Source of the DNA: an uncultured Alphaproteobacteria bacterium
GTDB taxonomy: Bacteria > Pseudomonadota > Alphaproteobacteria > RF32 > CAG-239
Length of the DNA stretch: 64,000 nt
Direction of reading: 5' to 3'
Assembly (NCBI GenBank): GCA_944392235.1
Contig: CALXVZ010000005.1
Span: forward strand, 3,903-67,902
Positions 33,025 to 64,000 of this stretch are shown one piece after another. Position 1 is the stretch's first letter; the number at the start of each line of letters is the position of its first letter. The notes beneath the pieces are model-generated. The model was not told the origin of the DNA and ran no database searches. It saw only the letters and a program-made list of their open reading frames with translations. Position numbers and translations under genes: made by a program.

Positions 33025-33040
33025 GTTAAAAAATAATTAA
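33025..33040 (-). promoter_or_regulatory. CtrA-type box TTAA-N7-TTAAC upstream of pilL
   Basis: Plus strand gttaa-aaaataa-ttaa = minus strand TTAA-ttatttt-TTAAC, 43 bp upstream of the pilL start. Confidence 0.5.
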
Positions 33041-33077
33041 TCAAGTTTAACACTCTATTTATAAAACGTTTTGTTAA

Positions 33078-34703: not shown

Positions 34704-34734
34704 AATAATGTATAATGAATTTAGGAGAATTGAA

Positions 34735-35091: not shown

Positions 35092-35097
35092 TAATAG

Positions 35098-35149
35098 TCT
35101 AATAACAATAAAAAAGGGGAGGGTTCTCCCCTTTTTTATTGTTATTAGA
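35098..35149 (+). terminator. 24-bp perfect inverted repeat, strong intrinsic terminator after virB2 copy 1
   Basis: tctaataacaataaaaaaggggag-ggtt-ctccccttttttattgttattaga. Confidence 0.85.
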
Positions 35150-35290
35150 TAAATATCTAATTGTATGAAGTTTTTGTTACAGAGTGAAAAAAATAATAAA
35201 AACAAAGAGATGATAAGAATAGTGTTTAACGGATTTTTCTGGATTTTTTATATATTTTATGATATAATTTCCCAAAAAAAGGGGGGTGTG

Positions 35291-35623
35291 ATGTGTGAAA
35301 AAAATAGAGTATTGCTTTTAATATTACTAGCACTAGTAATAATTAATTTCCCAGGAGTTTCTTATGCTGCGGGGATGTTTGAACCATTAAAAAATGCTGG
35401 AAGAACAATTTTTGAGGGGTTAAGACAAATTATCTATCCTGCTTCAGCTGTGGGTATAATAGCAGTATGTATTGGTGGATTTTTTGGAAATATCAACTGG
35501 AAATGGTTGACAGCCATTATTTTAGGCTTAGTGGTAATAACATTGTGTGTGCAGTTTGTGGCAATGTTTGCTCCATCTGATGCCGCAGATGAGATAGGTG
35601 AGAGACTGAGTATAGGAGCGTAG
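35291..35623 (+). CDS. virB2: VirB2/TrbC-family pilin, copy 2
   Basis: Signal peptide ending SYA; GIIAVCIGGFFGNINWKWLTAIILG matches copy 1; start ATG 35291 after GGGGGG. Confidence 0.7.
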   Translation: MCEKNRVLLLILLALVIINFPGVSYAAGMFEPLKNAGRTIFEGLRQIIYPASAVGIIAVCIGGFFGNINWKWLTAIILGLVVITLCVQFVAMFAPSDAADEIGERLSIGA

Positions 35624-36069: not shown

Positions 36070-36360
36070 ATGAAAGATGTAATATTAAAAGCTGTTGCAA
36101 ATCCTCCAAAGTTATTTTGGGGACCTGTGTTGCCGACAGCATTAAATGCAGGTTTGCAAATACCTTTTATGTTTATGGCTATAGGAATATGGAATGTGAA
36201 TCCTTTGGTCTTTATAATAAGTATAATAACTGGACACCTGATAGTTATAGCCCTAGGAGCAAAAGACCCACATTTGTCTGGAATGATACAAGCCTTTGGT
36301 CAAACCAATTTAGTATCACAAAACTTATATAAAGAGAAAGGGAATAAATTTGAACCTTGA
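36070..36360 (+). CDS. virB3: VirB3-like inner-membrane T4SS protein
   Basis: About 96 aa, D.ILKA.ANPP..FWGP, two TMs, KDPH; overlaps virB4 start. Confidence 0.7.
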   Translation: MKDVILKAVANPPKLFWGPVLPTALNAGLQIPFMFMAIGIWNVNPLVFIISIITGHLIVIALGAKDPHLSGMIQAFGQTNLVSQNLYKEKGNKFEP

Positions 36361-49641: not shown

Positions 49642-50400
49642 ATGGCAAACTTAATCAATCAAAAGATTCTCCGTCTGACAAATAAAAATAAGGAAAAAGA
49701 GGCTCCTGCTTTTATTACAGAGGATGTTATTGAAGTTAAACGAGCAAAATTAATATACTATAGGTGGATAAGCCGCTTAATGGCATTTCTTGCGACAATT
49801 TCTCTTTTATATGGAATATGTGCAACACTATCAATACTAAAATTAGCACCATCAATAATAATAGATCCGCAAATCTTTGTATCTTTTTCTGATTCGGAAT
49901 CATATGTCAAACGCGAACGAATAGAATGGTGGATGGATTCACGAGAAAAAATGATGATAAATTTTATGAAACAATATGTAGAATATCGAAATACATACAT
50001 AAAAGATGCTCGAGAAATGGAAAACAGATGGTTATGGGGAGGTTTAGTATCATATTTATCAACCTATAATGTATATAAAAGCTTTGAAAAAGAGTTTCCT
50101 GCAGTAAAATCAGAACTAGATGAAAAAGGAGCAAGCCGATCAGTTGAAATCCTTTCTGTAGAAAGAACCGGTGGAGAAAATAGTAATACATGGAAAATAG
50201 AATTTAAGACATACGATTTTACATATCAAAAAGGTATTATAAATCGTAAAAAAGATACGTTCCCCATAATAAAGGAAAGATATTGGACCGCCAATGTTAG
50301 GGGATATGTTGATCCAAGAAGAATAACCTCATATCGAAGATTATTAAATCCATTAGGATTTGTCATATATAGCTATTATCAAAGTGAAATAAAAGTTTAA
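49642..50400 (+). CDS. virB8: VirB8-family protein, copy 1
   Basis: Bitopic TM, F..QYV..R..Y, R.VEILSV, C-terminal LLNPLGFVI..Y (NPxG motif). Confidence 0.82.
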   Translation: MANLINQKILRLTNKNKEKEAPAFITEDVIEVKRAKLIYYRWISRLMAFLATISLLYGICATLSILKLAPSIIIDPQIFVSFSDSESYVKRERIEWWMDSREKMMINFMKQYVEYRNTYIKDAREMENRWLWGGLVSYLSTYNVYKSFEKEFPAVKSELDEKGASRSVEILSVERTGGENSNTWKIEFKTYDFTYQKGIINRKKDTFPIIKERYWTANVRGYVDPRRITSYRRLLNPLGFVIYSYYQSEIKV

Positions 50401-50542
50401 AAAATTTTTAAGTATTAATACGATACATTAATATTATCCGATTTAACTTGTTGATAAGTTAGGGTAAATGATTTTCTCGTTAGACTTTTAAAAATAAAAG
50501 ATTTAATTATGAAAAGAGAGTTACTAAAAAGAGGGTGTAAAG

Positions 50543-50731
50543 ATGTATAAGATATTAGTAATTATGCTATCAATAGTCATTTTAGCCGCATGCAATTTTA
50601 TAGGAAGTTATTATGAGCCAGAACCTGTTGGAATTGGTAAAGATATTTATGAACTAAAATTATCTCCATGTGCATGTATAGAGGTAGAGTTACCAAAAAC
50701 ATTACCGGATTGGTTTAAAGCAATGAGCTAA
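50543..50731 (+). CDS. virB7: VirB7-like small lipoprotein
   Basis: 62 aa, lipobox ILAAC, LKLSPCAC motif; located between two virB8 genes. Confidence 0.7.
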   Translation: MYKILVIMLSIVILAACNFIGSYYEPEPVGIGKDIYELKLSPCACIEVELPKTLPDWFKAMS

Positions 50732-50740
50732 GGTAGAATA

Positions 50741-51499
50741 ATGGTGGAACAGATATCTTCTGAAAATACAAAAAAAATATTATTGGAAGGGCAAAAAGGA
50801 ACCTATCCTCATGCAAAAATGTCAAGAGCATATAAAAAAGGCTCTGCAGACGTTATTGTTGAGAATGCGACGGAGAAGAGGTATTTATGGACAGCAAGAG
50901 CTTTTGCAATTATTTTTGCAGTAAGCGTATGCTGTAATTTGATACTAACTTATGTCATCTTTGCAATTATGCCATTGTATCGCGTTGAGCCATATTTATT
51001 AAGTTTTACAGATAAAAAGGATCAAATATATAATGTTGAGCCTGTGAGGAATATATATGAATATAAATATTTAACGGAGATATTTATAAGAGAGTATGTA
51101 TTACTTAGAAATACTTTTGTAAATGATATTGAGGAAATGGAGCTTCGTTGGGGACCAGGAGGAACAATTCAAGAAATGTCATCAACAGGAGTATATGATA
51201 AGTTTAAAAAAGAGTTTGCTGATCCTGCTCTGGAAATAATTCGTCAACATAATATAACAAGAAACATAAAAATATCATCTGTTACCGAAGTTGGTGGAGC
51301 AAATGGGGAAAATTGGTGGCAAGTCGAATTTAGAGTGGAAGACATGATGCCAGAATATGAAACCCCAAGAGTAAGTGTTTGGGTTGCTTCAATAAAAATA
51401 AGGTATAGAGCAAAACGAGTGACATTTGGAGAGAGATTGAAAAATCCATTAGGATTTACAGTATTAGATTATAAACAAGTAGAGCGTAAAACAAATTAA
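50741..51499 (+). CDS. virB8: VirB8-family protein, copy 2
   Basis: TM then MPLYRVEPYLL, FIREYVLLR, W.VEF, LKNPLGFTVLDY. Confidence 0.85.
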   Translation: MVEQISSENTKKILLEGQKGTYPHAKMSRAYKKGSADVIVENATEKRYLWTARAFAIIFAVSVCCNLILTYVIFAIMPLYRVEPYLLSFTDKKDQIYNVEPVRNIYEYKYLTEIFIREYVLLRNTFVNDIEEMELRWGPGGTIQEMSSTGVYDKFKKEFADPALEIIRQHNITRNIKISSVTEVGGANGENWWQVEFRVEDMMPEYETPRVSVWVASIKIRYRAKRVTFGERLKNPLGFTVLDYKQVERKTN

Positions 51500-51518: not shown

Positions 51519-53486
51519 ATGAAGAGAACATTAAAAATATTATCAATAGCAATATTAGCACTTGGATTTTGTATAATAGAAGCAAGGGCTCAGGTAACGA
51601 AAAATAGTTTAGATCAAAATGCTGACCAAAGTCAGGGAAATTACGCTGCAACAAATTTAAATTATTTAGGGGGCGTTGGGTCTCTTGGAATGATGCAAAG
51701 TGCATGGAAAGATCCTTTGCAACATATGGGAGAAGGTCAAAGTCGACCAGGTTATACAAAATATTATTGGACACCGGAATTGGTATTGCCAGTACGTGTA
51801 AGAGAGGGAATGTATACATTGATAAATTTTCCAAATTGGGAAGTGATAGAGAATGTATATATTGGTGACGGTCAATCATTTAATGCAGAAATACAAGGTC
51901 CATCAAGTTTAATGGTGTATCCGGATTCATCACAATTTGTGGGAGTAGATACAAATATGATTGTATTTGGTCGTTCTGGCAATAAATATGTTTTCTATGT
52001 TCAAAGTGAAACAGTTAATACCGATAGAATAACAAATGCAATTATAGATATTGAAGTAGTAAAGAGAAAAGGTGGTATAAATGGCTCTGGTTCTATAGGA
52101 AATAGCGGAAATGGACATGTAAATGCAAGTACGTATGAAACAGGCGGAACAAGCGTGGATTCAACATTTACAAGGGATTTGCAAAGAGAGGATTGGATTG
52201 AAAAAATCCCCGTTGATCCAACTAAATTTAGGTTTGATATTGAAGTATATGTTCCAAATCCAGATGACATTGTAATAGCACCGGAGAGAGTATGGAGAGA
52301 TAATATATTTACTTATATAGACTTAGGAGATAAAGCCCTAACAGCAGTTCAAAGACCGATAGTAACTTTGATAGTAGAACGTTCAGAAACTCCTGTCGGT
52401 TTTAGAACAGCCGGCCCAAACAATAGATTGATTATTGTTGAGGGAATGGGAGACATGGTTTTGCGTAGCGGCAAAAGAATTGTATGTTTAAAATTAAGAA
52501 GAGCAGATTCGGATGGTCTTGAAAATGCAGTCTATGCAAAAACAAATGAATGGGATTTGCAGGCTCAAGATAGAAATCTTTCAAAAGAAAATTATGAAGA
52601 TGTATACAATGCTCCTAAAGACGATTCTGAAGGAACAGCAGAAAAAAAATCATTCTTTGAAAGCAATTCTTTCTTTAATTCGAAAGGAAGTGATAACTTC
52701 CAGCAAAGAGAACAGAACTCAGATATGAGTTATGAACAGATGATAAGTGATGGAAAGAATACTGCAACAGCTCCACAAACAGAAAAGTCACAGCAAATTG
52801 AAAATAAACAGCAAATTGAAGCAAAAAATAAGATAAAGGAGGCTAATGAAACTGCTTTAGAAATCTTAGAGAGTTTACCGAAGGCGAAGACTATTGTGGC
52901 ACCGGAAACACCTAAAATTCCTCAACAAGAAAAGCCACAAATCGAAGGACAAATTGATATAAAATCGGATAGAGCAGAATTGATTAGCCCTATATATAAT
53001 AATCAACAAGAAAAAATAAGTGTAAATAATCAACAAGAAAAAAGTTCACAAAATTCATCGTCTCCAAATATCACCACTAATACAATAGGAAATTCAAATA
53101 ATAATTCTAATCCTATATTAATTAGTCCAAAAGATGGAAATATAAATAGAAACAAAGCTATTTCATCAGAAACAGAAGCATTGCTACAAGAATTTAAGGA
53201 TGGTAGAGCTTTTTCCCAAACAAAAGGAGATAGTATATCAATAGAATTAGGAACAGATAAAGACATAAATAATCTTGAAAAATTATGGAATGGCATATCA
53301 AAAAATTATTCAGCAACACTAGGAAAATATCAGCCCTTTTATTCAGTAGATACACCTGCTGATGGTCAGGGAAAAGAAGTATTTCATCTTCGTGTTGGCC
53401 CTATACAATCATTAGAAGAAGGTGATAATATATGCAGTCAATTAGGTCGTAATGGTATATTTTGTAGTGTGGTTAGGATACAATGA
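51519..53486 (+). CDS. virB9: VirB9/TrbG-family protein with C-terminal SPOR domain
   Basis: Signal peptide; V.VREGMYTLI.F...E.I..V.IGD, DTNMIV, FDIE, VWRDNIFTYI; C-terminal IELG...LW......FHLRVGPI.S......C.QL...G..C.VV SPOR pattern. Confidence 0.8.
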   Translation: MKRTLKILSIAILALGFCIIEARAQVTKNSLDQNADQSQGNYAATNLNYLGGVGSLGMMQSAWKDPLQHMGEGQSRPGYTKYYWTPELVLPVRVREGMYTLINFPNWEVIENVYIGDGQSFNAEIQGPSSLMVYPDSSQFVGVDTNMIVFGRSGNKYVFYVQSETVNTDRITNAIIDIEVVKRKGGINGSGSIGNSGNGHVNASTYETGGTSVDSTFTRDLQREDWIEKIPVDPTKFRFDIEVYVPNPDDIVIAPERVWRDNIFTYIDLGDKALTAVQRPIVTLIVERSETPVGFRTAGPNNRLIIVEGMGDMVLRSGKRIVCLKLRRADSDGLENAVYAKTNEWDLQAQDRNLSKENYEDVYNAPKDDSEGTAEKKSFFESNSFFNSKGSDNFQQREQNSDMSYEQMISDGKNTATAPQTEKSQQIENKQQIEAKNKIKEANETALEILESLPKAKTIVAPETPKIPQQEKPQIEGQIDIKSDRAELISPIYNNQQEKISVNNQQEKSSQNSSSPNITTNTIGNSNNNSNPILISPKDGNINRNKAISSETEALLQEFKDGRAFSQTKGDSISIELGTDKDINNLEKLWNGISKNYSATLGKYQPFYSVDTPADGQGKEVFHLRVGPIQSLEEGDNICSQLGRNGIFCSVVRIQ

Positions 53487-56400
53487 ACGAAAATACGCGT
53501 TTTGAGGAATATGAAAAGAAAACAAGAAAAATAATTCTAATAATAGGAATTATTCTATTTTTCTTATTTTTGATTGGATTGCAATTAAATTCTTCAGACG
53601 GAGAAATATATAATCCAGAAGAAAATACACCAGATTTTGTAGAAAATCAAAATATACTACCAGAAATTAATTCAGAAACCCCCCCGTTATTTATAGATAC
53701 GGAAAATTCAGAAATTGGAAATAAAAATAAGCCGATAAAAATAACTCCATCTCAAATAAATATGAATAAATTTATATTAGGGGTAGATACGCAGAATCAA
53801 AGCATTTTGACAATAGGAACAGATGGAAGCGAGAGTATTCATATTGAAAGAGTAGAATTAGTTGAAGAAATGGAAGATGGATTTGAGCTTCGTGATAAAT
53901 GTAGAAACAGAGATTTACGCGGAGACGAGACTTGTAATATTTTAATAAATTGGAATCCTCATTTACCGGGAAATGTTCAAAACAACATTAAGATAACATG
54001 GTATGAAACAAGATTAGATAAATCGAGTGTAAAATCCGAAGAAATCAGTGTAAAAGGAAGTGCATTATATCCAGAAGCAAACTATCAAATATGTGAGGAT
54101 GGCACAAATTGCTCAGTTGGAACAATGAAAGAGAGTGCACATCGTCTAGCAATAGGTCCAAATGGAGAAATAATAGGTTATATAGATGAAGCTGGTAATG
54201 TGCACGATAAAGACGGAAAAATAATAGGACGTGTAAATGAAGATGGATTAATTGTAGATGCCAATGGTAATATCATTGGAGTAGCCCAAAATATGAAATT
54301 AGCCTATGATAAAGATGGTAATATAATGGGGTATGTAAAAACAGATGGATCCGTAGTAGATTTGCAAGGGGAGGTAATAGGCAGAGCCCTTGCTGATGGA
54401 ACAATTGTGAACAGTAAAGGAGAAATAATAGGAAAAGCCGTAGAAGCAGGATTTGTATATGATAAAAATGGAAAAATAATAGGAAGAGTATTACCTGATG
54501 GAACAGTCGTTGATATAAATGATTCGCAAAAAATCATAGGTCGCCTAAACGAAAATGGAGACGTTGTTGATGCAGAAGGTAATATAATTGGTAAGGTAAC
54601 ATCATCAGGAAACATTGTTGTAGATGAAAATGGCAATTTACTTGGAGTAGTAATGCCAGATAATAGTGTTGTAGATAAAGATGGCAATGTAATAGGATAT
54701 GTTGATGAAGAAGGAAATGTATATAAAGTTGCAAGTGAAAAAATCGGAAGTAATGGAGAAAGTAGAAAGATTGTATATGATAAAGAGGGGAAAGCAATAG
54801 GTTATATTGATGAGAATGGTAAGATAGTCAAATTTACAAAAGGAAAGAATGCCCCCCAAATAATAGGAAAGGTCGGAGCAAGCCACAGACTAGCTTTAGA
54901 TAAAGATGGCAATGTAATAGGATATATTGATAAAGATGGAACAGTAAAAGACTTTAATGGAAATATTATCGGAAAAGCAGATAAAGATGGAAACATCAGA
55001 GATAAAGATGGTAATATAATAGGAAAAGCCGGAGCGTATAGTAAATTAGCATTAGATAAAGATGGTAAAGTTATTGGTTATATCGATGAGCAAGGACGTG
55101 TCTTTGATCATAATGGTAAGCAAATAGGAACAGTTGATGAAAATGGAAATATAATAGCTCTAGATGATTCTGAAAATAGCGGGGATAAAAAAAGAGTAGC
55201 TATGGGTGTAGATGGTAAACCCATAGGATACATAGATGATGATGGCAATGTTATAGATTATGAAGGAAACATAATTGGAAAGCTAAACGAAAAAGGCGAA
55301 ATAATTGATCAGAATGGTAATGTTATCGGAAAAGCGGGGGCATACGAAACCGTAGCTTATGATAAAAATGGTAAAATCATTGGTTTTGTAGATGATAAAG
55401 GCGGAGTAATAGGAAAAGATGGTAAACTCATAGGTTACATTGATGATAAAGGTCAAATAATAGGACTAAGTGAAGATATATTAGGGCGAGCAGGAAGATT
55501 TGCAGAAATTGTCTATGATAAAAATAATAAATTTATTGGATACATAGAAAAAGACGGAACAGCAAAAGGCTGTGGTGGAATTATTATTGGTAAAAAAGAT
55601 AAAGAAGGAAATGTGAGAAATAATGAAGGGGAGATAATAGGCAAAGTTGGTGAGGTAAAAGAGCTGGCTTTTAACGAAAAAGGTTTATTGATAGGTTACG
55701 TTGATGAAAAGAAAAGAATAATTGATTGCAGTAACAAAATTGCAGGAATTGTAGATAATAAAGGTAATGTAATCGCAAGTAGCGGAGAAAAATTAGGAAC
55801 AGCAGGAAATTATAAAAGATTAGCCTATGATAAAGATGGAAAAGTCATAGGATACATAACTTCAGACGGAACCGTAAAAGATTTTAAAGGAAATTTAATC
55901 GGAAAGATGCTCGAAGATGGAACCGTTTTAGATAAGAATGGTAATATAATCGGACAAGCCGGTGAATATGAGCAAATGGCTGTAGATAAAGACGGTAATA
56001 TAATAGGATATGTTGACGAAGAAGGACGTGTCGTTGATGAAAATGGTAAGTTAATAGGTTTCATTGATGAAGATGGAAATGTCATAAAAGCTGGGGATAA
56101 AATAATAGGTAGAACATGTGCAGAAAGGAAAATTGTCGAGAATAAAAAAGGTGAAATTATTGGATATTTGGATAAAAACGACATCGTAAAAAATTTTAGC
56201 GATAGAATAATAGGACATAATAAAAAAGGCGATGTTTTAGATAATAAAGGACTACTAATAGGAAGTGTGAAAGAAAAGAAGAATATCGCACTACTAAAAA
56301 ATGGGAAAGTAATTGGATACATTGATGAAGAAAACAATGTTCGAGGAGATAATGCAGAAATAATAGGCATTATAAACGAAAAAGGAGAGGTTCTTTCTAT

Positions 56401-59400
56401 TAAAACAAATATAATAGGGAAATTATCTTCTGACAATATTACAGTATACGACTTAGGTGAAAATACTATAGGCACAATGAAAAATAATAGAATAGCCTAT
56501 AATAAAGAAGGAAAAATAATAGGATATATTAATAAAGAAGGTGCGCTATTAGCTTCAGGAGAGATAATATGCACAGCTTGTAAGACTGCATTAATTGGAT
56601 ATAATAAAAATAGTCAAGAGATTGGATATGTTGATGAAAATGGCAATATCTTAAATAGAAGTGAAATAAAAGGAAAAATAGATGAAAAAGGAAATATAAA
56701 AGATAAAGAAGATAAAATTTTAGGCAAGGCAGAAGAAAAGAAGAATTTAGGATATAGCCTTGAAGGGAACATAATTGGATATGTGTATAAAAATAATATA
56801 GTGAAAGATTTCGATGGAAAAATAATAGGTTATGTAGATGAATACGGTAACATATTGAATAATACGGAAGAACAAATAGGAAGTGTCGGTCAATATGGAA
56901 AGCTAGCTTTAGACAAGGATGGAAATGTTATCGGCTATGTCGATAAAGATGGGAATGTATATGATTTTAATGGAAAGTTAATAGGAAAGGCGACAGAAGA
57001 TGGTCGTATATTAGATGAATATGGTCGAGAAATTGGTGAAGTAGGAGATTCGAACGCTTTAGCAGTTAATAAAGACGGTAAGGTAATAGGATACATTGGT
57101 AAAGATGGTCGAATATACAAAGAAAATGGAGAGATTGCAGGCTTTTTAGACGATGAAGGTAATGTAATAGGTGTAACAGATGAAATTATAGGAAAAGTAG
57201 GTCAAGTAAAAAAATTAGCCCTAGATAAAGAAGGTAATATAATAGGTTATATAGATGAAGATGGAACAGTAAAAGATTTTGATGGCAATTTAATAGGCTA
57301 TTTAAATGAAGACGGCACCATAAATGATATAAATGGCAATATAATAGGGAAAGCAGGAGAACTGACAAAAGTTGTTGTCGATGAAAATGGTAATACTGTA
57401 GGCTATACTGACGAACAAGGGCGCGTTATTGGAAAAGATGGAGAAGTAATAGGCTTTGTCGGAGAGGATGGCATAGCATACAAGAGCACAGGTGAGGTGA
57501 TAGGTCGACTTGCAGAACAGGGAGATAGCACATTAAGTGTAGTAGGAAGACAAGGTATAATCGATGAAAATAATAATACAATTGGCTACGTTGATGAAAA
57601 TGGAATGGCTCGAGATTTGAATGGTAACATAATAGGAAGAGTGCAATCAGATGGTAGCGTTATAGATGAAACAGGAAAGATTATTGGAAAGGTTGGTGAA
57701 TTTGTTGACTTTACAATGGATGAAAATGGTAAAGTAGTAGGAAAAGTAGGAGATTACGCAAATCTTGCCGTAGATGAAATAGGCAACGTAATAGGTTATG
57801 TTGGAAAGGATGGAAAAGTATATAATGCAGAAGGGATAGTTATAGGCTACATTGATGAGAATGGTAATGTCATCAGCTCAAGAGGTATAAAAATAGGAGC
57901 TGTTATAAATAAAGATATGATAGCACTATCACCAAATGGTTATAGTCTTGGCACAATAAATAACAGAGGCGAAATAATCAATAATAAAGGTCAAGTAATA
58001 GGAAAGACCTTACCTAATAGTCTAATAAGATCAGTTGAGGGAAATAGAATAATAGGAAAGACGGTTATTGGAGGATTAGCAATAGGTTGGGGCTGTCAAC
58101 AATACGGATATATAGATAAAGATGGAAGAGTCAAAAAAGAAGGAAAAGATATTGGATATAGAATGCTTTTTGATGGCAGTATAGTTGATAAAGATGGAGA
58201 ATATAAAGGAGACGTTCTAAAGACGGGTATAGTTAGAGATAGTAAATGTAACATAATAGGAAGAGCTGGAAATGATGGATTTGTTCGAACAGATAATGGA
58301 CAATACATTGGATGTGTAAATCCAGATGGTGGAGTATTAGACCAAAATGGACAATTAATAGGTAAAGTCCATACACCAACGTATGCATTATATTATAATG
58401 GTGAGATGATGGGGAGTGTAAGCTCAAATGGTTTAATAAAATCAGGCCAAGAGACACTTGGGTGTGCAAATTTAGAAGGAGAAGTTCTTAACAAAGATGG
58501 CTTTATTATTGGCCACATAATGGATAAGAAACAAGCATTTGACACAGAGGGGAATTTTATTAATAAGCTATCAATAAACAATTACGATAACACAGAAGTA
58601 ATTCCAAATACAAAAATTTTATTTAATAAATTGCTGGTCAATTCAAAACAAGAAGTAAAAGGCATAATTTTACCGGAAAAAAATATCATAGTCGATTCTA
58701 ATGGAGAAGTTATAGGTCATCTATTTGCAGATGGATATGTGTATAATCAACAAGGTATAGCAGAAGATAAATTTATTTATGAGGGTAATTCATTTTATAA
58801 TAAAAAGGCCGGACGTATTTTGCCTAAAGGAAATGTTGTAGATTTCAATGGTAATTATTTGGGATTTGTAAGCGATAACGGTAAAGTCATTGATTATTTA
58901 GGCACAGAATACGGACATATAGATGTAAAAGGAAGAATGTTTGATTCTCAGGGAACATACAAGGGAGGCATTGTAAAAACAGGAGTTGGAATAGGATATG
59001 ATGGGTCATATCTTGGATATGTTAGCAAAAGTGGAAAGGTTATAGATGTAGATGGAAATACAAGTGGGGTAGTTAGTTCAGAAGGTCATATATTAGATAA
59101 AAACAAACAGATTATAGGTGAAGTAATTTCAGAGGATTTTGTCATTGATATACAAGGAAATATACAAGGATATGTGAATGCATTAGGCGATATAATAGAT
59201 AAAGAAAATAAGATAGTAACAACAGTATTACCAGGGGGAGCATCTAATAAAAATTATAGTCTAATAAAGAAAGGTATTATACTTAATTATTCAGGAAAAG
59301 TAATTGGTCAAGTTGTCTCGGATGGAAATGTCATATCAACAAATAATGAGAAAATAGGAAAGATATTAGTGACAGGACGAGCAGTTAACAATAAAGGAAT

Positions 59401-59758
59401 TTTATTAGGAGAAATAGTGGACAGCGATATAGTAATCAATGACGAAGATAAAGTTATAGGTATAATAAATGCAGAAGGAGAAGTAATAGACGCTGATAAA
59501 AAAATCATAGGAAAAATGATATCATCAAATTTAGTTGTAGATAACAATGGAAAAATAATGGGACATGGATATAAGATTGGTGCTAATATATTAGGGAATG
59601 ATGGTAAATTTTTAGGACGATTATCAGCAAATGGAAGCGTTTTAAATTTAACAAATGGACGAATAGGATATCTAAAGAGTAATGGCTCTTTTGTAAATAT
59701 TCAAAATAAGGTAGCAGGGTATGTGCTTGAAGAAGCAGCACAAAATCGGAGGAATTAA
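53483..59758 (+). CDS. 2091-aa membrane-anchored protein: N-terminal TM, Ig-like domain, about 100 17-aa beta-hairpin-type repeats
   Basis: ORF track; TM at about aa 16-35; C..L.G..TCNI.I.W.P..PG Ig-like pattern; repeat xVxDxxGxIIGxVxxDG. Confidence 0.85.
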   Translation: MNENTRFEEYEKKTRKIILIIGIILFFLFLIGLQLNSSDGEIYNPEENTPDFVENQNILPEINSETPPLFIDTENSEIGNKNKPIKITPSQINMNKFILGVDTQNQSILTIGTDGSESIHIERVELVEEMEDGFELRDKCRNRDLRGDETCNILINWNPHLPGNVQNNIKITWYETRLDKSSVKSEEISVKGSALYPEANYQICEDGTNCSVGTMKESAHRLAIGPNGEIIGYIDEAGNVHDKDGKIIGRVNEDGLIVDANGNIIGVAQNMKLAYDKDGNIMGYVKTDGSVVDLQGEVIGRALADGTIVNSKGEIIGKAVEAGFVYDKNGKIIGRVLPDGTVVDINDSQKIIGRLNENGDVVDAEGNIIGKVTSSGNIVVDENGNLLGVVMPDNSVVDKDGNVIGYVDEEGNVYKVASEKIGSNGESRKIVYDKEGKAIGYIDENGKIVKFTKGKNAPQIIGKVGASHRLALDKDGNVIGYIDKDGTVKDFNGNIIGKADKDGNIRDKDGNIIGKAGAYSKLALDKDGKVIGYIDEQGRVFDHNGKQIGTVDENGNIIALDDSENSGDKKRVAMGVDGKPIGYIDDDGNVIDYEGNIIGKLNEKGEIIDQNGNVIGKAGAYETVAYDKNGKIIGFVDDKGGVIGKDGKLIGYIDDKGQIIGLSEDILGRAGRFAEIVYDKNNKFIGYIEKDGTAKGCGGIIIGKKDKEGNVRNNEGEIIGKVGEVKELAFNEKGLLIGYVDEKKRIIDCSNKIAGIVDNKGNVIASSGEKLGTAGNYKRLAYDKDGKVIGYITSDGTVKDFKGNLIGKMLEDGTVLDKNGNIIGQAGEYEQMAVDKDGNIIGYVDEEGRVVDENGKLIGFIDEDGNVIKAGDKIIGRTCAERKIVENKKGEIIGYLDKNDIVKNFSDRIIGHNKKGDVLDNKGLLIGSVKEKKNIALLKNGKVIGYIDEENNVRGDNAEIIGIINEKGEVLSIKTNIIGKLSSDNITVYDLGENTIGTMKNNRIAYNKEGKIIGYINKEGALLASGEIICTACKTALIGYNKNSQEIGYVDENGNILNRSEIKGKIDEKGNIKDKEDKILGKAEEKKNLGYSLEGNIIGYVYKNNIVKDFDGKIIGYVDEYGNILNNTEEQIGSVGQYGKLALDKDGNVIGYVDKDGNVYDFNGKLIGKATEDGRILDEYGREIGEVGDSNALAVNKDGKVIGYIGKDGRIYKENGEIAGFLDDEGNVIGVTDEIIGKVGQVKKLALDKEGNIIGYIDEDGTVKDFDGNLIGYLNEDGTINDINGNIIGKAGELTKVVVDENGNTVGYTDEQGRVIGKDGEVIGFVGEDGIAYKSTGEVIGRLAEQGDSTLSVVGRQGIIDENNNTIGYVDENGMARDLNGNIIGRVQSDGSVIDETGKIIGKVGEFVDFTMDENGKVVGKVGDYANLAVDEIGNVIGYVGKDGKVYNAEGIVIGYIDENGNVISSRGIKIGAVINKDMIALSPNGYSLGTINNRGEIINNKGQVIGKTLPNSLIRSVEGNRIIGKTVIGGLAIGWGCQQYGYIDKDGRVKKEGKDIGYRMLFDGSIVDKDGEYKGDVLKTGIVRDSKCNIIGRAGNDGFVRTDNGQYIGCVNPDGGVLDQNGQLIGKVHTPTYALYYNGEMMGSVSSNGLIKSGQETLGCANLEGEVLNKDGFIIGHIMDKKQAFDTEGNFINKLSINNYDNTEVIPNTKILFNKLLVNSKQEVKGIILPEKNIIVDSNGEVIGHLFADGYVYNQQGIAEDKFIYEGNSFYNKKAGRILPKGNVVDFNGNYLGFVSDNGKVIDYLGTEYGHIDVKGRMFDSQGTYKGGIVKTGVGIGYDGSYLGYVSKSGKVIDVDGNTSGVVSSEGHILDKNKQIIGEVISEDFVIDIQGNIQGYVNALGDIIDKENKIVTTVLPGGASNKNYSLIKKGIILNYSGKVIGQVVSDGNVISTNNEKIGKILVTGRAVNNKGILLGEIVDSDIVINDEDKVIGIINAEGEVIDADKKIIGKMISSNLVVDNNGKIMGHGYKIGANILGNDGKFLGRLSANGSVLNLTNGRIGYLKSNGSFVNIQNKVAGYVLEEAAQNRRN
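54140..59740 (+). repeat. Coding tandem repeat, about 51 nt / 17 aa period (xVxDxxGxIIGxVxxDG; DUF3659-like by recollection)
   Basis: e.g. LAIGPNGEIIGYIDEAG NVHDKDGKIIGRVNEDG LIVDANGNIIGVAQNMK LAYDKDGNIMGYVKTDG; degenerate at the DNA level. Confidence 0.85.
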
Positions 59759-59759
59759 T

Positions 59760-62700
59760 TTGCAAAGAGTAAGATTAAAAATAAAAAATATAACTAAACT
59801 AGTATTGCTTTTAATAATAATAAGCCTAAAAGCGATAGCCGCCGATATTAGTGCTCTTAATTTTAATGGAGATTTAATAGGAAAAGTAATACCGGATGGA
59901 ACAGTCGTAAACGAAAATAATGAAGTTATTGGCTATATGACTGCAGATGGTCTGATTTATGATAATCAGAAAGAATTAATAGGCGGTGTAATTCCGCAAG
60001 GGATGGCTATATCAAATAACAATAAAATACTTGGAAAAATTAATAATGATGGTTCTGTGACATCGATAAATAATGCATTAGTCGGCAAGGTGTTACCCAA
60101 TGGATTAGTTGTAAATGATAGTTATGATGTTCTAGGAGCTGTAATACCAACAGGTCTTGTCTATAATGATTTAGGTTTAGTAGTAGGAAGAGTATCAGGA
60201 GATGGTAAATATTATAATTTAACAGGCGAAAATAATGGCTTTGTAACAGTAAACGGAGATGTTTATGGATATCAAGGTGTAGATGGACAGATAGCATTAA
60301 TAGGAAAATTAATTTCATCAAAGATAGTTCTTTCATCAACAGGAAAATTTATAGGAAGTTTAGCACCTGATGGAAAGGTTATTAATAATCAAAAGAAAAT
60401 GCTAGGTAAAATACATGCAAATGGGTATGTATTTAATGAAGAAGGTAATGCTATAGGAAAAGTAGTAAAAGAAGGATATGCATTCAATAATAATGGAGCT
60501 TATATTGGTATTGTTAGCTATAATGGAGATATCATAAATAAAGGGATAATAATAGCCAAAGCTATTTCTGGAAATAGAGTTATAAATAAGGAAGGTCAGC
60601 GCATTGGTTTTACACTAAGTTCAATGACGACTGCAAATAATTTAAAAGGGGAATATTTAGGAAGACTATCTGCAAAAGGAGAGATTTTAAGAAAAAGAAA
60701 TGTAGTAGGAAAGATTGGAGCGAATGGTAATATTGTAAATGAAAAAGGAGAGTTAATAGGAACTATAAATTATGCAGGACCTATATTTGACTACCTTGGA
60801 AATTTAAAAGCAAATGCGTCAATAAATGGAAAGGTATATTCCTTAGAAGGTATAGAAGTAGGACTAATAAGAGAAAAAGAAGGATTTGATAATGCAGGAA
60901 AAGTTATCGGCTCTTTATTAGATGAAAGTGTATGTTTCAATAACACAAATGAATTTATAGGTATAAGTGGAATAGGAACAAAGCTTGAAAAAAATGGAAA
61001 AATATATAAAATATCACCTAATGGGTATGTTTTTGATGAAAAAGGCACAATTGGCGGTGGAACAGTAAAATTTGGAGAAATATACACAGCAGAAGGCACG
61101 CCACTAACTTACATATCTGATAATGGAAATACAGAAACATCTAGTTTAAATGAAATAGCTAAAATAACAAATGGCGGACTATATATAGATAAAAATAATA
61201 AGTTATTAGGAAAGCAAATACAAGGCAAATATGTTACAAATTTTGCAGGCGAAACGCAAGGATATACAGGAAAATCGAATTTTGTAGTAAATGATGAAAA
61301 CAAAGTATATGGCAAAATACTACCTAATAATGATGTTGTAGGAATATCAGAACGTTTCTCACAAAATTATGGTAAAGCAGATAACAAAAATTTAAGTATA
61401 AGCATAAATGGAGACTATCTAGGTTCAAGCACTCTAGAAGGAAAGATTGTTAATGGGAATGAAATCGTAGGTAAAATAAGCTCTAACGGATATGTTGTAG
61501 ATAATACAGGAGCCCTATACGGAAAAACAGTAAACTATGGTAGTATAATTTCACCAAAATGCGAAGTTTTAGGAGTTGTATCTGATAATGGGGAAGGAAG
61601 GACTTCGCAGGGAGCATATCTGGGAATGATATTGGCAAATAAACAAGTTCTTTCAGACACAGAAACTTTAGTAGGGTATGTGGTAGAGCCACAGGTAATA
61701 AACGGAAAAGAAGGAAAAGTTATTGGAATAAGTAGTCCTATAGGTAATACTCTAACGTATAATAATGAAAATTTAGGATGTATAGATTGGCAGGGTAAAG
61801 TAAGAAACTCACAAGGAGAAATCGTAGGACAAACAATACCATCCATGTCAATAATGGGCTATGATAATAAAATTGTTGGATACACAACTTTTGGTGGAAA
61901 AATTATAGACAATTCTGGATTAGAAATTGGTTATATGGATATCAATGGAGAAATAAAGTCAAAAGACGGAAAAAATATTGGGGTTCCTTTTCTATATACA
62001 GTAGCCTTTGATTTTAATAATACATATCTAGGGCGTATAAACACAGAGGGACAAGTAGTATCGGACCAAGGAGTAATACTCGGAAATACACAGTATAATG
62101 GATTAGTTAAAAGTTCGAACGGAAATATAGGATATGCTTTATATGATTTATATGTATATGATAATGAAGGAAAAACAATAGGATATATATCAAAAAATGG
62201 AAAGGTTTATAGTATTTTAGGAGAAATACAAGGAACAATCTATCAGGGTTTTGTTTTAGATAAGAAACAAAACCTCATAGGAAGAGGATTACGCGATTAT
62301 AATATAAGAGATAAACAATATAATATAATCGGAGAATTGAAATTAGATGGTAGAGTAATAAATATCCAAAATATAGAAGTAGGTAAATTAGGTGAAGATG
62401 GTCAAATATTAAATGCAAGAGGAGAAGTGATAGCAATAGCAGAAAAGTTGCAATACTATCAAAAACCCAAAATTGTAGCACCAAAATCAGAAGTAGAGAT
62501 ACAAGAAAAAAAGAAAGATAATATAACAGATACAGAGATAAGAACTGAAGAAGCTAAAGAAACTAAAGAAACAGAAGAAAACAATACACTTGCTGAAAAA
62601 AAGGAAGAAGTAATAACACCTGCAGAACAAATAAGAGATAGTGAAAAAGTAATAGGAATAGCTGTAACACCGGGTGGACGCTATATTGGAGATATATATA

Positions 62701-64000
62701 GCGACAATAGTGTAATAGATGAAGAAGGAAAAATTATAGGAAAAAAGAATGAAAAAGGAGAGATTATAGATAACAAAGGACAAAATATAGGGATAATTGA
62801 GCAGAAAGAATATCAAACAACCAAAGATATTAATCCTAATAGACGAGCACAAATTTCAGCTGGAACAACAATTGATCCATATAATATAGGTAATTCAATC
62901 ACAAATGTAGGTCCTGGAGGAGGTATAGGTCCAGGAGGAAGATATAATCCACGTCGAGCAGCAATTTTATCGCAATTACAAGAAGAGCGCCGGAGGACAA
63001 TGGTCGCAGCAAAAATAAATCCAGGTTATGATGCGGCATCATACACAGGATGGCAAGACAATTGGGGAATTGGGCGAACCATATCAACATTACGAGTAAA
63101 CATGGATAATATGATAACAGGAGATAAACCAATACCTGCAGTTTTAGCAAGGTCATTAATATCATTAGGAGAAGCCCCTGTTACAGCAATAGTTGAGCGG
63201 AATATCTATGGGGATTCTGGACGTAATGTTATTATACCTGCAGGAAGTAGGATAATCGGGGGGTTACAAGCAGCTGAAGGCCGATCCAGATTTGATGGAA
63301 CGAGTGGTGGTGTAAAAATGGATATAGCCTGGGAAAGGATAATCCGCCCTGATGGAATAGCCTTTTTGTTATCGCCAGGAAGAACAAGAACTGGTGATGC
63401 ACAAGGACGAGGAGGCGGAGCTCTAGGATATGTGGATGAACAGTTGGTGAAAAAATATACACTTCCAATAGTTGGCACAATGGTTGCATCCGCAGTAACA
63501 TATATGATGGCTGCAGATGAAGATAGCACGGGAGAGGTGGAAACATCAAAGCAACAAGCAGCATCAGATGCAAGACAACAATTCATGGAGAAAATGGATC
63601 AAATATTACAAGAAATTATAGATAGTAAGTCGCAAATTGAACCTGTAACATTTATTCCTGCGGGCACAAGGGTAATTATATATCCTATGCAAGATTTATG
63701 GCTGAGAAGTACAAAAGAAATAGAAAAAGGAATAAGCGCTACCGGTATAGATGGAGGAAGAGGTGGCCTAGTTAATGAGACATATTATGGATCTGGCGGT
63801 GGAACAACTACTATCGACGGTAACAATAGTCAAGGCAGTCAAAAGGTTATACTTGGCAACCAAGGGCAAAACACAAATTCAAATGAAGGTGGTGGAACCC
63901 CATTGATAAATGAAGGACCTTCAAATAATCAACCTCAAAAGCCAAATAAAAATATAGGAGCAATTCCTCCTCCAACAGCTGATGGAACGGAGATACAAGA
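59760..64000 (+). CDS. virB10: Giant VirB10/TrbI-family protein (at least 1413 aa, 3' truncated) with about 50 N-terminal 17-aa repeats
   Basis: Manual translation: GGAGG RBS, TTG 59760, no stop to window end. Core at about 63100-63704: MITGDKPIPAVL...VTAIVERNIYG..GRNVIIPAGSRIIG, IAWERIIRPDG, DAQGRGG..GYVD, IEPVTFIPAGTRVIIYPMQDL. Confidence 0.9.
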   Translation, partial: MQRVRLKIKNITKLVLLLIIISLKAIAADISALNFNGDLIGKVIPDGTVVNENNEVIGYMTADGLIYDNQKELIGGVIPQGMAISNNNKILGKINNDGSVTSINNALVGKVLPNGLVVNDSYDVLGAVIPTGLVYNDLGLVVGRVSGDGKYYNLTGENNGFVTVNGDVYGYQGVDGQIALIGKLISSKIVLSSTGKFIGSLAPDGKVINNQKKMLGKIHANGYVFNEEGNAIGKVVKEGYAFNNNGAYIGIVSYNGDIINKGIIIAKAISGNRVINKEGQRIGFTLSSMTTANNLKGEYLGRLSAKGEILRKRNVVGKIGANGNIVNEKGELIGTINYAGPIFDYLGNLKANASINGKVYSLEGIEVGLIREKEGFDNAGKVIGSLLDESVCFNNTNEFIGISGIGTKLEKNGKIYKISPNGYVFDEKGTIGGGTVKFGEIYTAEGTPLTYISDNGNTETSSLNEIAKITNGGLYIDKNNKLLGKQIQGKYVTNFAGETQGYTGKSNFVVNDENKVYGKILPNNDVVGISERFSQNYGKADNKNLSISINGDYLGSSTLEGKIVNGNEIVGKISSNGYVVDNTGALYGKTVNYGSIISPKCEVLGVVSDNGEGRTSQGAYLGMILANKQVLSDTETLVGYVVEPQVINGKEGKVIGISSPIGNTLTYNNENLGCIDWQGKVRNSQGEIVGQTIPSMSIMGYDNKIVGYTTFGGKIIDNSGLEIGYMDINGEIKSKDGKNIGVPFLYTVAFDFNNTYLGRINTEGQVVSDQGVILGNTQYNGLVKSSNGNIGYALYDLYVYDNEGKTIGYISKNGKVYSILGEIQGTIYQGFVLDKKQNLIGRGLRDYNIRDKQYNIIGELKLDGRVINIQNIEVGKLGEDGQILNARGEVIAIAEKLQYYQKPKIVAPKSEVEIQEKKKDNITDTEIRTEEAKETKETEENNTLAEKKEEVITPAEQIRDSEKVIGIAVTPGGRYIGDIYSDNSVIDEEGKIIGKKNEKGEIIDNKGQNIGIIEQKEYQTTKDINPNRRAQISAGTTIDPYNIGNSITNVGPGGGIGPGGRYNPRRAAILSQLQEERRRTMVAAKINPGYDAASYTGWQDNWGIGRTISTLRVNMDNMITGDKPIPAVLARSLISLGEAPVTAIVERNIYGDSGRNVIIPAGSRIIGGLQAAEGRSRFDGTSGGVKMDIAWERIIRPDGIAFLLSPGRTRTGDAQGRGGGALGYVDEQLVKKYTLPIVGTMVASAVTYMMAADEDSTGEVETSKQQAASDARQQFMEKMDQILQEIIDSKSQIEPVTFIPAGTRVIIYPMQDLWLRSTKEIEKGISATGIDGGRGGLVNETYYGSGGGTTTIDGNNSQGSQKVILGNQGQNTNSNEGGGTPLINEGPSNNQPQKPNKNIGAIPPPTADGTEIQ
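59840..62450 (+). repeat. 17-aa coding repeats within virB10
   Basis: SALNFNGDLIGKVIPDG TVVNENNEVIGYMTADG LIYDNQKELIGGVIPQG MAISNNNKILGKINNDG..., the same unit as the upstream giant protein but more divergent. Confidence 0.8.

What the first reader, a model, noticed from the sequence alone, without database searches (positions are those of the whole stretch)
51519..53486. VirB9 fused to a C-terminal SPOR peptidoglycan-binding domain
Seen: a VirB9/TrbG-like region (about 51740-52500), a roughly 240-aa Q/N/S/E low-complexity linker, then a SPOR-type domain (about 53230-53483) with IELG, FHLRVGP and a C...C pair. Known: SPOR domains bind denuded glycan strands enriched at the septum (FtsN, DamX, RlpA). 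Inference: the outer-membrane core complex may be positioned at the division site/new pole, which would fit cell-cycle control.
Basis: partly seen in the sequence, partly recalled or inferred. Interest (0 to 1): 0.65.

Follow-up and report, generated by a model that had tools for sequence, protein, structure and literature searches.

The report
VirB9 with tethered atypical SPOR domain
The outer-ring protein (VirB9) of a chromosomal type IV secretion machine in an uncultured gut alphaproteobacterium ends in a long flexible tether and a cell-wall-binding SPOR-type domain; the fusion is conserved and I found no paper describing it, but the glutamine that SPOR domains use to grip septal cell wall is a glutamate here, so wall anchoring is likely and septum targeting is unproven.

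Summary
ORF 51519-53486 (+) encodes a 655-aa secreted protein. It has a VirB9/CagX region (Pfam 5.4e-13, residues 80-324), a 225-aa disordered linker that is 58% Q/N/S/E/K/T, and a C-terminal 85-aa domain.

That domain scores as SPOR when scanned alone (24.2 bits; cut-off 21). It folds b-a-b-b-a-b (pLDDT 83.6). Its four best PDB fold matches are all SPOR domains: RlpA twice, CwlC and DedD.

The gene lies in a virB operon, between virB8-virB7-virB8 and a giant beta-flower protein followed by virB10. The fusion is present in 150 of 151 sampled genomes of the order and in at least seven other alphaproteobacterial families. It also occurs on two Sphingomonadales megaplasmids. All fused forms make one VirB9 clade (98/98 support). 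No other VirB9 found in 72,556 plasmids carried the tail.

The SPOR glutamine that contacts denuded glycan (RlpA Q270, FtsN Q251) is Glu in 119 of 120 close homologues and Glu or Asp in distant ones. FtsN Q251E weakens septal binding. Full CtrA boxes are at chance frequency.

My best reading is a multivalent peptidoglycan tether for the outer-membrane core complex, with altered or weakened ligand recognition. I rate it a new variant of a known kind.

The parts
51519..51590 (+). Signal peptide (residues 1-24, MKRTLKILSIAILALGFCIIEARA|Q), signal peptidase I type
   Evidence: Sequence. A24 and Q25 are invariant in 38 homologues while the h-region varies.
51591..51755 (+). Conserved N-terminal segment of mature VirB9 (residues 25-79)
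   Evidence: 89% mean identity among order-level homologues. AF2 gives it low confidence.
51756..52064 (+). VirB9 N-terminal beta-sandwich domain (residues 80-182)
   Evidence: First half of the Pfam CagX match. TIGR02781 VirB9 matches residues 85-166. AF2 predicts strands 92-182 at pLDDT about 75.
52065..52181 (+). Gly/Ser-rich variable inter-domain insert (residues 183-221)
   Evidence: 38% identity among homologues; pLDDT about 33.
52182..52553 (+). VirB9 C-terminal domain (residues 222-345), the part that in known systems binds VirB7 and VirB10 in the O-layer
   Evidence: Second half of the CagX match, up to residue 324. It is the most conserved region, 93% identity. AF2 monomer confidence is low.
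52554..53228 (+). Disordered Q/N/S/E/K-rich tether (residues 346-570), with a short conserved helix at 550-560 just before the SPOR domain
   Evidence: Composition and 27% identity; the span from the conserved VC[LIV]K motif near residue 323 to the SPOR start is 170-290 aa in close homologues. The tether is shorter in the distant relatives aligned. pLDDT is below 50.
53229..53483 (+). SPOR-fold domain (residues 571-655): beta1 ISIELGTD, alpha1, beta2 YQPFYSV, beta3 VFHLRVG, alpha2, beta4 CSVV
   Evidence: Pfam SPOR 24.2 bits when scanned alone and 38 of 38 homologues hit. AF2 pLDDT 83.6. Foldseek top four matches are SPOR domains. 81% identity among homologues.
53244..53246 (+). Codon GAA for Glu576, at the position of the conserved glycan-contacting Gln of SPOR domains
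   Evidence: hmmalign column 15: Glu in 16 of 19 VirB9-fused representatives; Gln in 124 of 165 generic SPOR domains. Glu in 119 of 120 close homologues. Coordinates.
53385..53393 (+). His623-Leu624-Arg625 on beta3, the retained part of the SPOR basic patch (equivalent to RlpA R309 and R311)
   Evidence: Arg625 is invariant; position 623 is Arg in 12 of 19 fused representatives and His in 6. The equivalence rests on register relative to the conserved GP motif and on PMC6895207.
53433..53465 (+). Cys639 ... Cys649 pair (alpha2 / beta4), probably a periplasmic disulfide
   Evidence: Invariant in fused forms and present in 165/165 and 163/165 related generic SPOR domains. The disulfide itself is inferred.
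50543..50731 (+). VirB7-like 62-aa lipoprotein (lipobox LAAC), the likely partner of the VirB9 C-terminal domain
   Evidence: ORF list and sequence. The assignment rests on size, lipobox and position only.
49642..51499 (+). Two virB8 paralogues flanking virB7, immediately upstream of virB9
   Evidence: Pfam VirB8 at 3.9e-10 and 5.7e-19.
53483..59758 (+). 2091-aa beta-flower repeat protein; its ATG overlaps the virB9 stop (CAATGA), which suggests translational coupling
   Evidence: Pfam Bflower_2 at 1.1e-126. Overlap read directly.
59721..63998 (+). VirB10/TrbI homologue with an N-terminal extension of more than 1100 aa carrying beta-flower repeats (runs off the window)
   Evidence: Pfam TrbI at 5.6e-27, residues 1132-1328.

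Best explanation
The gene encodes the VirB9 subunit of the outer-membrane core complex of a chromosomal, vertically inherited P-type (VirB-like) type IV secretion system. After Sec export, the VirB9 N- and C-terminal domains assemble with VirB7 and VirB10 into the ring. That assembly is inferred from family membership and operon context. From each VirB9 copy a disordered tether of about 225 residues hangs into the periplasm and ends in a disulfide-stabilised SPOR-fold domain.

I propose that these domains bind glycan strands of the sacculus around the machine. Known VirB-type core complexes have about 14 copies per ring. The domains would then tie the outer-membrane complex to the cell wall by avidity and limit its lateral movement. 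This would parallel the OmpA-like domains of DotK and Dis1 in the Dot/Icm core and the AMIN domains of PilQ.

The binding face is not canonical. The glycan-contacting Gln is Glu, the flanking aromatic residue is Asp, and the Arg-containing basic patch is kept. Affinity for classical denuded glycan is therefore probably lower, or the preferred ligand is somewhat different. Enrichment at the septum or new pole is possible but not implied.

Shown here: architecture, fold, conservation, distribution and binding-site substitutions. Inferred: peptidoglycan binding, multivalency, the anchoring role and the disulfide.
For: - VirB9 identity and operon context.
- SPOR family and fold.
- Purifying selection on the SPOR domain (81% identity) against 27% in the tether; among distant relatives 47% against 7%.
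- The fusion is kept in 150 of 151 genomes and 20 of 20 genera of the order, with the match spanning profile positions 1-507.
- It is also present in families f18, f32, f49, f69, f70, f97 and f98 of the class and in 435 species genomes in total.
- All fused forms make a single clade on the VirB9-domain tree, 98/98 support.
- Arg625 is invariant and position 623 is Arg or His on beta3.
- An AmiC-type amidase, which makes denuded glycan, is present in 3 of 4 near-complete congeners.
- Precedent for peptidoglycan-binding modules in a T4SS outer-membrane complex: DotK and Dis1, which have OmpA-like domains (PMC9302130).
- The tether is long enough to reach the peptidoglycan layer. This is an inference from its length.
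Against: - No binding data exist and the organism is uncultured.
- Glu576 replaces the most conserved ligand-contacting residue, and FtsN Q251E lowers denuded-glycan binding and septal localisation about two-fold.
- The aromatic residue at the RlpA F274 position is lost.
- A profile of the domain finds no SPOR chain in the PDB by sequence, so the domain is divergent.
- The closest non-fused VirB9 relatives carry only Pro/Gly-rich tails and presumably work without a wall-binding domain, so the domain is not mechanically indispensable to this VirB9 type.
Confidence: 0.55

Rival explanations
1. The SPOR domain binds classical denuded glycan made by septal amidases. It thereby recruits or deposits the T4SS core complex at the division site, so that machines end up at new poles, coordinated with the cell cycle.
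For: - The domain has a SPOR fold and belongs to the SPOR family, and every SPOR domain characterised so far localises to septa (PMC6895207; bioRxiv 10.1101/2022.07.01.498525).
- An amidase is present in the genus.
- Part of the basic patch is retained.
- About 15% of generic SPOR relatives also carry Glu at the Gln position (25 of 165), so Glu may be compatible with binding.
- Q251E in FtsN reduces septal localisation but does not abolish it.
Against: - Glu or Asp is fixed at the Gln position across the whole fused clade, and the aromatic residue is lost.
- This genome's own housekeeping SPOR protein keeps the Gln (WYTQIIASS), so the change is specific to the VirB9 copy.
- CtrA boxes are at chance frequency.
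- No localisation data exist.
Confidence: 0.2
2. The SPOR fold has been repurposed for protein-protein contacts rather than wall binding. It might dock onto the co-translated beta-flower giant protein or onto VirB10, or it might self-associate to organise a periplasmic cage.
For: - The canonical ligand residues are changed.
- The gene is translationally coupled to a 2091-aa beta-flower protein.
- A conserved helix (residues 550-560) and conserved short motifs in the tether could be interaction sites.
Against: - The Sphingomonadales megaplasmid operon has the tail but a plain VirB8-VirB9-VirB10-VirB11-VirD4 layout, with no beta-flower gene annotated between virB9 and virB10.
- Conserved surface residues (Glu576, His/Arg623, Arg625) should lie on the beta-sheet face used for glycan binding. 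This is inferred from strand periodicity.
- No partner has been identified.
Confidence: 0.15
3. The E-type SPOR reads a different wall mark, for example de-N-acetylated, anhydro-ended or otherwise edited glycan. It would then place the machine where that mark is made.
For: - An acidic residue is fixed next to an invariant Arg across a deep clade, which suggests selection for a specific chemistry rather than decay.
- RlpA SPOR tolerates anhydroMurNAc ends but not de-N-acetylated GlcNAc, which shows that the site discriminates between such marks.
Against: - No PF01522 polysaccharide deacetylase was found in any of the 7 genus- or order-level genomes searched.
- No wall-editing enzyme is encoded in the operon.
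- This reading is purely inferential.
Confidence: 0.1

Closest known systems
Canonical VirB9/TrbG/TraO/TrwF/CagX outer-membrane core subunits of P-type T4SS (Pfam PF03524)
   Same: Both have a signal peptide and a two-part VirB9 region. This one scores above the Pfam cut-off and lies between virB8/virB7 and virB10 in a virB operon.
   Different: This protein is 655 aa, against about 290-440 aa for canonical forms. It adds a 225-aa disordered tether and a SPOR domain. It scores far below the NCBIfam VirB9 equivalog cut-off, 27.8 against 217.7 bits. It is chromosomal and a core gene of a whole order, not plasmid-borne.
SPOR domains of FtsN, DamX, DedD, RlpA and CwlC (Pfam PF05036; PDB 6i09, 6ztg, 1x60)
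   Same: Both share the b-a-b-b-a-b RNP-like fold (TM 0.73-0.78 to RlpA and CwlC) and a periplasmic location. Arg is present on beta3. A Cys pair is present, as in many alphaproteobacterial SPOR domains.
   Different: Glu576 replaces the conserved Gln, and Asp580 replaces the Phe/Tyr. The domain is attached to a secretion-system ring protein instead of a division protein, lytic transglycosylase or amidase.
DotK and Dis1 (OmpA-like peptidoglycan-binding domains) in the Legionella Dot/Icm T4BSS outer-membrane core
   Same: In both cases a peptidoglycan-binding module is built into a T4SS outer-membrane complex (PMC9302130).
   Different: The fold differs (OmpA-like against SPOR). DotK and Dis1 are separate lipoproteins, not a fusion to the VirB9-like subunit, and they belong to type IVB rather than IVA.
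PilQ AMIN domains and TsaP LysM of type IV pilus secretins (from general knowledge, not tested here)
   Same: Both add wall-binding domains to an outer-membrane channel protein.
   Different: The domain families are unrelated and the machine is different. Those domains sit N-terminal to the secretin, not on a long C-terminal tether.
VirB9-SPOR genes on Sphingomonadales megaplasmids (Erythrobacter aureus YH-07 NZ_CP031358.1; Sphingosinicella sp. BN140058 p1 NZ_CP035502.1)
   Same: They belong to the same VirB9 clade (98/98 support) and carry a homologous C-terminal SPOR-like domain with an acidic residue at the Gln position, RLRVGP and a Cys pair.
   Different: They are 430-433 aa with a short tether and have Asp instead of Glu. 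Their operon is a plain virB4...virB11-virD4 layout without giant beta-flower proteins. Pfam does not call the domain (13.5 bits on a truncated piece). They are annotated only as 'TrbG/VirB9 family'.

Membership tests
VirB9/TrbG/CagX (PF03524) | Profile match above the curated cut-off | tested here: met
   49.7 bits against 34.2, E 5.4e-13, residues 80-324 covering profile positions 4-195 of 198. It is the only PF03524 match in the genome.
VirB9/TrbG/CagX (PF03524) | Equivalog-level match to P-type VirB9 (TIGR02781) | tested here: not met
   27.8 bits against a cut-off of 217.7. This is a divergent subfamily.
VirB9/TrbG/CagX (PF03524) | Encoded in a T4SS operon next to virB7/virB8 and virB10 | tested here: met
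   VirB2 (two copies), VirB4, VirB8 (two copies), a VirB7-like lipoprotein and TrbI/VirB10 lie on the same strand. VirD4 is encoded elsewhere in the genome.
VirB9/TrbG/CagX (PF03524) | Sec signal peptide and periplasmic/outer-membrane location | tested here: met
   An N-terminal hydrophobic segment and a conserved AxA|Q site. Assessed by inspection; no predictor was run.
VirB9/TrbG/CagX (PF03524) | Assembly with VirB7 and VirB10 into a roughly 14-fold core complex | not testable with these tools
   The AF2 monomer gives low confidence for the C-terminal domain. No multimer modelling was available.
SPOR domain (PF05036) | Profile match above the curated cut-off | tested here: met
   24.2 bits against 21 for the isolated C-terminal 95 aa, and 38 of 38 homologue C-termini match. 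In the full-length protein the score is 19.2, below the cut-off. In the genome search it is 23.4 bits, above the cut-off.
SPOR domain (PF05036) | RNP-like b-a-b-b-a-b fold superposable on solved SPOR domains | tested here: met
   AF2 pLDDT 83.6. The top four Foldseek matches are RlpA (two entries), CwlC and DedD SPOR domains; the best has TM 0.78 and rmsd 2.3 A.
SPOR domain (PF05036) | Conserved Gln in beta1 that contacts MurNAc/GlcNAc (RlpA Q270, FtsN Q251, DamX Q351) | tested here: not met
   Glu576. The same column is Gln in 124 of 165 related generic SPOR domains and Glu in 16 of 19 fused representatives and 119 of 120 close homologues. The residue's role is described in PMC6895207.
SPOR domain (PF05036) | Aromatic residue after beta1 (RlpA F274) that bends the glycan | tested here: not met
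   Asp580. Generic relatives have Phe or Tyr in 99 of 165.
SPOR domain (PF05036) | Basic patch on the beta-sheet face | tested here: inconclusive
   Arg625 is invariant and position 623 is His (Arg in most distant fused forms). The third Arg of RlpA could not be mapped.
SPOR domain (PF05036) | Binding to denuded peptidoglycan glycan strands and septal localisation | not testable with these tools
   This needs sacculus pull-down, ITC or fluorescent-fusion localisation.

The most novel reading that the evidence does not exclude
The VirB9 tail defines an 'acidic-groove' class of SPOR domain. Glu or Asp has been fixed in place of the glycan-reading Gln, next to an invariant Arg, since a single ancient fusion. 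Such a domain would recognise a wall feature other than ordinary denuded glycan. It would then dictate where in the sacculus a whole family of alphaproteobacterial T4SSs is inserted, from core machines of small-genome gut lineages to Sphingomonadales megaplasmid systems.
Probability: 0.15. Interest if true: 0.7.

Novelty: new variant of a known kind. Interest (0 to 1): 0.5.

Why it matters
How type IV secretion machines are fixed in, and positioned relative to, the peptidoglycan layer is poorly understood for VirB-type systems. Their known core complexes have no wall-binding module.

Here a whole VirB9 clade carries one. It is a core gene in 150 of 151 sampled genomes of an abundant order of uncultured gut bacteria. 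A relative of the protein is encoded in 435 species genomes, and the fused form was confirmed in every complete locus examined among the best 80.

This gives a concrete, testable handle on wall anchoring of a T4SS. Tests could use a small soluble domain and a culturable Erythrobacter megaplasmid homologue. The clade also supplies a natural set of Gln-to-Glu/Asp SPOR variants for studying SPOR ligand specificity. It further suggests that this elaborate T4SS, with giant beta-flower proteins and a neighbouring type IVb pilus operon, is central to the lifestyle of these small-genome gut alphaproteobacteria.

Tried and rejected
1. A profile of the C-terminal domain searched against PDB sequences gave no SPOR hit, only spurious coiled-coil matches. 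Fold comparison was needed instead.
2. Literature searches: 'SPOR domain' + 'VirB9' gave 0 papers. 'RF32' + 'type IV secretion' gave 0. In the 'SPOR' + 'type IV secretion' + 'peptidoglycan' search, the two most promising hits contained only 'sporadic' or 'sporulation'. Papers on Enterousia / Rs-D84 do not mention secretion.
3. tblastn of the SPOR tail alone against plasmids found nothing. The megaplasmid tails were found only by reading the full genes under the VirB9 hits.
4. De-N-acetylated glycan as an alternative ligand: no PF01522 deacetylase in 7 relatives, so I downgraded it.
5. Enrichment of CtrA boxes: rejected, counts are at chance.
6. A relic or decaying domain: rejected because of 81% identity in the domain against 27% in the tether, and retention in 150 of 151 genomes.
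7. A lipoprotein reading of 'LGFC' in the signal peptide: rejected, because Phe at position -1 does not fit a lipobox and AxA|Q is the conserved feature.
9. The full-length AF2 model was too poor (pLDDT 50) for a fold search of the VirB9 part.
10. The C-terminus of the Microvirga pMVF16-3 VirB9 (550 aa, inside the fused clade) could not be shown to be SPOR.
Full report
**1. The gene and its domains**

It starts with a signal peptide whose AxA|Q cleavage site is invariant in homologues.

Pfam places CagX/VirB9 (PF03524) on residues 80-324 at E 5.4e-13, above the curated cut-off. NCBIfam's strict VirB9 equivalog scores only 27.8 bits against a cut-off of 217.7, so this is a divergent VirB9.

An AF2 model of the whole protein is poor overall (pLDDT 50), but the pattern is informative:
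- The VirB9 N-terminal beta-sandwich (92-182) and the last 85 residues are confident.
- The VirB9 C-terminal domain is not. This is usual for a domain that folds against VirB7 and VirB10.
- Residues from about 330 to 545 are disordered.

The tether (346-570) is 58% Q/N/S/E/K/T. It is 27% identical among order-level homologues, against 91-93% for the VirB9 domains and 81% for the C-terminal domain. Measured from the conserved VC[LIV]K motif near residue 323 to the SPOR start, the span varies from 170 to 290 aa.

**2. Is the C-terminal domain a SPOR domain?**

In the full-length protein the Pfam score is 19.2 bits, just under the 21-bit cut-off. Scanned alone, the last 95 residues score 24.2 bits (E 4.4e-5), and all 38 non-redundant homologue tails hit SPOR, best 2.6e-7. 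The whole-genome search also places the hit above the cut-off.

A model built on the tail alignment has pLDDT 83.6 and the b-a-b-b-a-b order. Foldseek against the PDB returns SPOR domains as the four best matches: P. aeruginosa RlpA with and without denuded glycan, B. subtilis CwlC and E. coli DedD. The best has TM 0.78 and rmsd 2.3 A. A sequence profile alone does not reach any PDB SPOR chain, so the domain is divergent in sequence. Fold and family are nonetheless established.

**3. Genomic context**

The gene lies in a long same-strand virB operon:
- VirB2-type pilins (34708-35623);
- VirB4 (36350-38803);
- several large secreted proteins;
- virB8 (49642-50400);
- a 62-aa VirB7-like lipoprotein (50543-50731);
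- a second virB8 (50741-51499);
- virB9-SPOR;
- a 2091-aa beta-flower repeat protein, whose ATG overlaps the virB9 stop;
- a TrbI/VirB10 homologue with a giant beta-flower N-terminus.

A VirD4 homologue is encoded elsewhere in the genome. The genome is small: 1.29 Mb assembled at 77% completeness, with congeners of 1.3-2.0 Mb. It holds a single VirB9 and only one other clear SPOR protein.

**4. Distribution**

The word-based search found more than 1,600 homologues. The best 120 are full length, at 58-73% identity, with nearly identical tails.

A scan of one genome per species found 435 species encoding a relative. The best 80 are all uncultured gut or rumen Alphaproteobacteria MAGs from humans, ruminants, mice and rabbits. 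Every VirB9 ORF among them that is not truncated by a contig end carries the SPOR tail.

Within the order, 150 of 151 sampled genomes (20 of 20 genera) have the gene, and listed matches typically span the whole profile. It is therefore a core, vertically inherited gene rather than cargo of a mobile element.

Across the class (301 genomes drawn evenly), results fall into three groups:
- Full fusions also occur in seven further families, all with genomes of 0.9-2.5 Mb.
- The closest non-fused VirB9s (four families) have Pro/Gly-rich disordered tails instead.
- Canonical VirB9s of 290-440 aa match only the VirB9 part.

A profile search of 1.84 billion cluster representatives with the tail alone gave 173 hits. 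Nineteen of the 149 newly retrieved representatives (the best 150 listed minus P0112) contain VirB9. The rest are generic one- to three-SPOR proteins.

**5.

tblastn of the protein against 72,556 plasmids gave 20 records. All match only residues about 22-341. The tail alone gave nothing.

Reading the genes under the best hits changed the picture slightly. The VirB9 genes of a 408-kb Erythrobacter aureus plasmid and a 347-kb Sphingosinicella plasmid are 430-433 aa. They end in a domain that aligns over its whole length with the tail profile: YEVDLGSG / YMVDLGAG ... RLRVGP ... C...C.

On a maximum-likelihood tree of the VirB9 domain, all 21 fused sequences plus one unclear Microvirga sequence form a single clade with 98/98 support. 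The non-fused relatives fall outside it. This is consistent with one ancient fusion event. The fusion is therefore the hallmark of one VirB9 subfamily, rare on sequenced plasmids and absent from ordinary conjugative systems.

**6. The binding site**

Crystal structures of RlpA-SPOR with denuded glycan show several points (PMC6895207):
- Most contacts are made by main-chain atoms.
- One Gln on beta1 (Q270; FtsN Q251; DamX Q351) contacts the MurNAc lactyl carboxylate and GlcNAc.
- A Phe (F274) bends the chain.
- An Arg patch binds the carboxylate.

I aligned 200 SPOR domains from the representative search to the tail profile:
- The Gln column is Gln in 124 of 165 generic domains. It is Glu in 16 of 19 VirB9-fused representatives and in all 16 fragments.
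- It is Glu in 119 of 120 close homologues. Among distant fused forms it is Glu or Asp, with a single Gln exception.
- The Phe column is Asp, Asn or Gly in the fused forms.
- Arg625 is invariant, and position 623 is His or Arg.
- The Cys pair is shared with the generic relatives.

The genome's own housekeeping SPOR protein keeps the Gln. It is a 314-aa bitopic protein encoded next to a NagZ-like gene, with the motif WYTQIIASS.

In E. coli FtsN, Q251E reduces denuded-glycan binding and septal localisation about two-fold (bioRxiv 10.1101/2024.05.13.594014). The VirB9 tail is thus a SPOR domain by fold and descent, but it fails two of the residue-level features tied to classical denuded-glycan recognition. 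The acidic residue is fixed over a deep clade, which suggests selection rather than decay.

**7. Mechanism**

The best-supported reading is a cell-wall tether. Each VirB9 in the ring carries a long flexible arm ending in a SPOR domain that binds glycan strands. Together the arms would give multivalent anchoring of the outer-membrane complex to the sacculus. Functional precedents are the OmpA-like DotK and Dis1 in Dot/Icm (PMC9302130) and, from general knowledge, the AMIN domains of PilQ.

An AmiC-type amidase exists in the genus, and Q251E does not abolish localisation. Nothing supports it directly, however, and the altered site and the chance-level CtrA box count weaken it.

Two other rivals remain:
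- A changed ligand specificity. I found no PF01522 deacetylase in relatives, which argues against de-N-acetylated glycan.
- A repurposing of the fold for protein contacts. This is less likely, because the megaplasmid operons have the tail without a beta-flower gene between virB9 and virB10.

**8. Novelty and limits**

I found no paper that links SPOR to VirB9, and public annotations call these proteins only 'TrbG/VirB9 family'. Earlier notes of this scan report the same fusion in many other genomes with the same Gln-to-Glu observation. Those are unchecked AI notes and not independent evidence, but I re-derived each point here.

Wall-binding modules on envelope-spanning machines are a known idea, so I rate this a new variant of a known kind. 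Interest is moderate (0.5): the feature is real, widespread, undescribed and easily testable, but it is not a new principle.

Limits:
- The taxon names (RF32 / CAG-239-like) come from my memory of how such MAG titles map to GTDB. They were not tested.

Noticed in passing
window 23995-34457 (- strand): A type IVb-like pilus operon lies divergently next to the virB operon. It encodes a bundlin-like pilin, a T2SSF platform protein, a T2SSE ATPase, PilO, a secretin and a TcpQ-like protein.
   Followed up: partly
It could be the system's VirB11 or a PilT-like motor.
   Followed up: no
window 50543-50731 (+): A 62-aa lipoprotein ORF (lipobox LAAC, 'SPCAC' motif) lies between the two virB8 paralogues. 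It is a likely VirB7.
   Followed up: partly
window 53483-59758 and 59721-63998 (+): A 2091-aa protein made of beta-flower / DUF3659 repeats starts in the virB9 stop codon (CAATGA). The following VirB10/TrbI has an N-terminal extension of more than 1100 aa with the same repeats.
   Followed up: no
window 8185, 33025, 34644 (- strand): The full CtrA box TTAA-N7-TTAAC occurs 3 times in the window against 2.4 expected by chance, and 44 of 100 shuffles reach 3. The count alone does not support cell-cycle control.
   Followed up: partly
G000:C9 (L081 1492-2436, - strand): This is the genome's only other clear SPOR protein. It is 314 aa and bitopic, with a canonical Gln motif (WYTQIIASS), and is encoded next to a GH3/NagZ-like gene. 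It is probably the division-related SPOR protein.
   Followed up: partly
L091-L094 (genomes G393, G406, G300, G169): The closest VirB9 relatives without SPOR have 50-200-aa Pro/Gly/Ala-rich disordered C-terminal tails. A tail may therefore have preceded the acquisition of the SPOR domain.
   Followed up: partly
L099 1246-2895 (Microvirga sp. VF16 plasmid pMVF16-3): This 550-aa VirB9 falls inside the fused clade. Its C-terminus (…SAIILGPYS…MIKISGV…C…C…) looks SPOR-like by eye but matches neither Pfam SPOR nor my tail profiles.
   Followed up: partly
P0126 (478-aa cluster representative): This protein combines a DUF2961 match (5e-23), a partial CagX match and the SPOR tail. It is either a chimeric gene call or a further domain rearrangement.
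   Followed up: no
L097 (Erythrobacter aureus YH-07 plasmid NZ_CP031358.1, 99198-112025): A complete virB4...virB8-virB9(SPOR-like)-virB10-virB11-virD4 operon lies on a 408-kb plasmid typed as non-mobilizable. It offers a culturable model for the fusion.
   Followed up: partly
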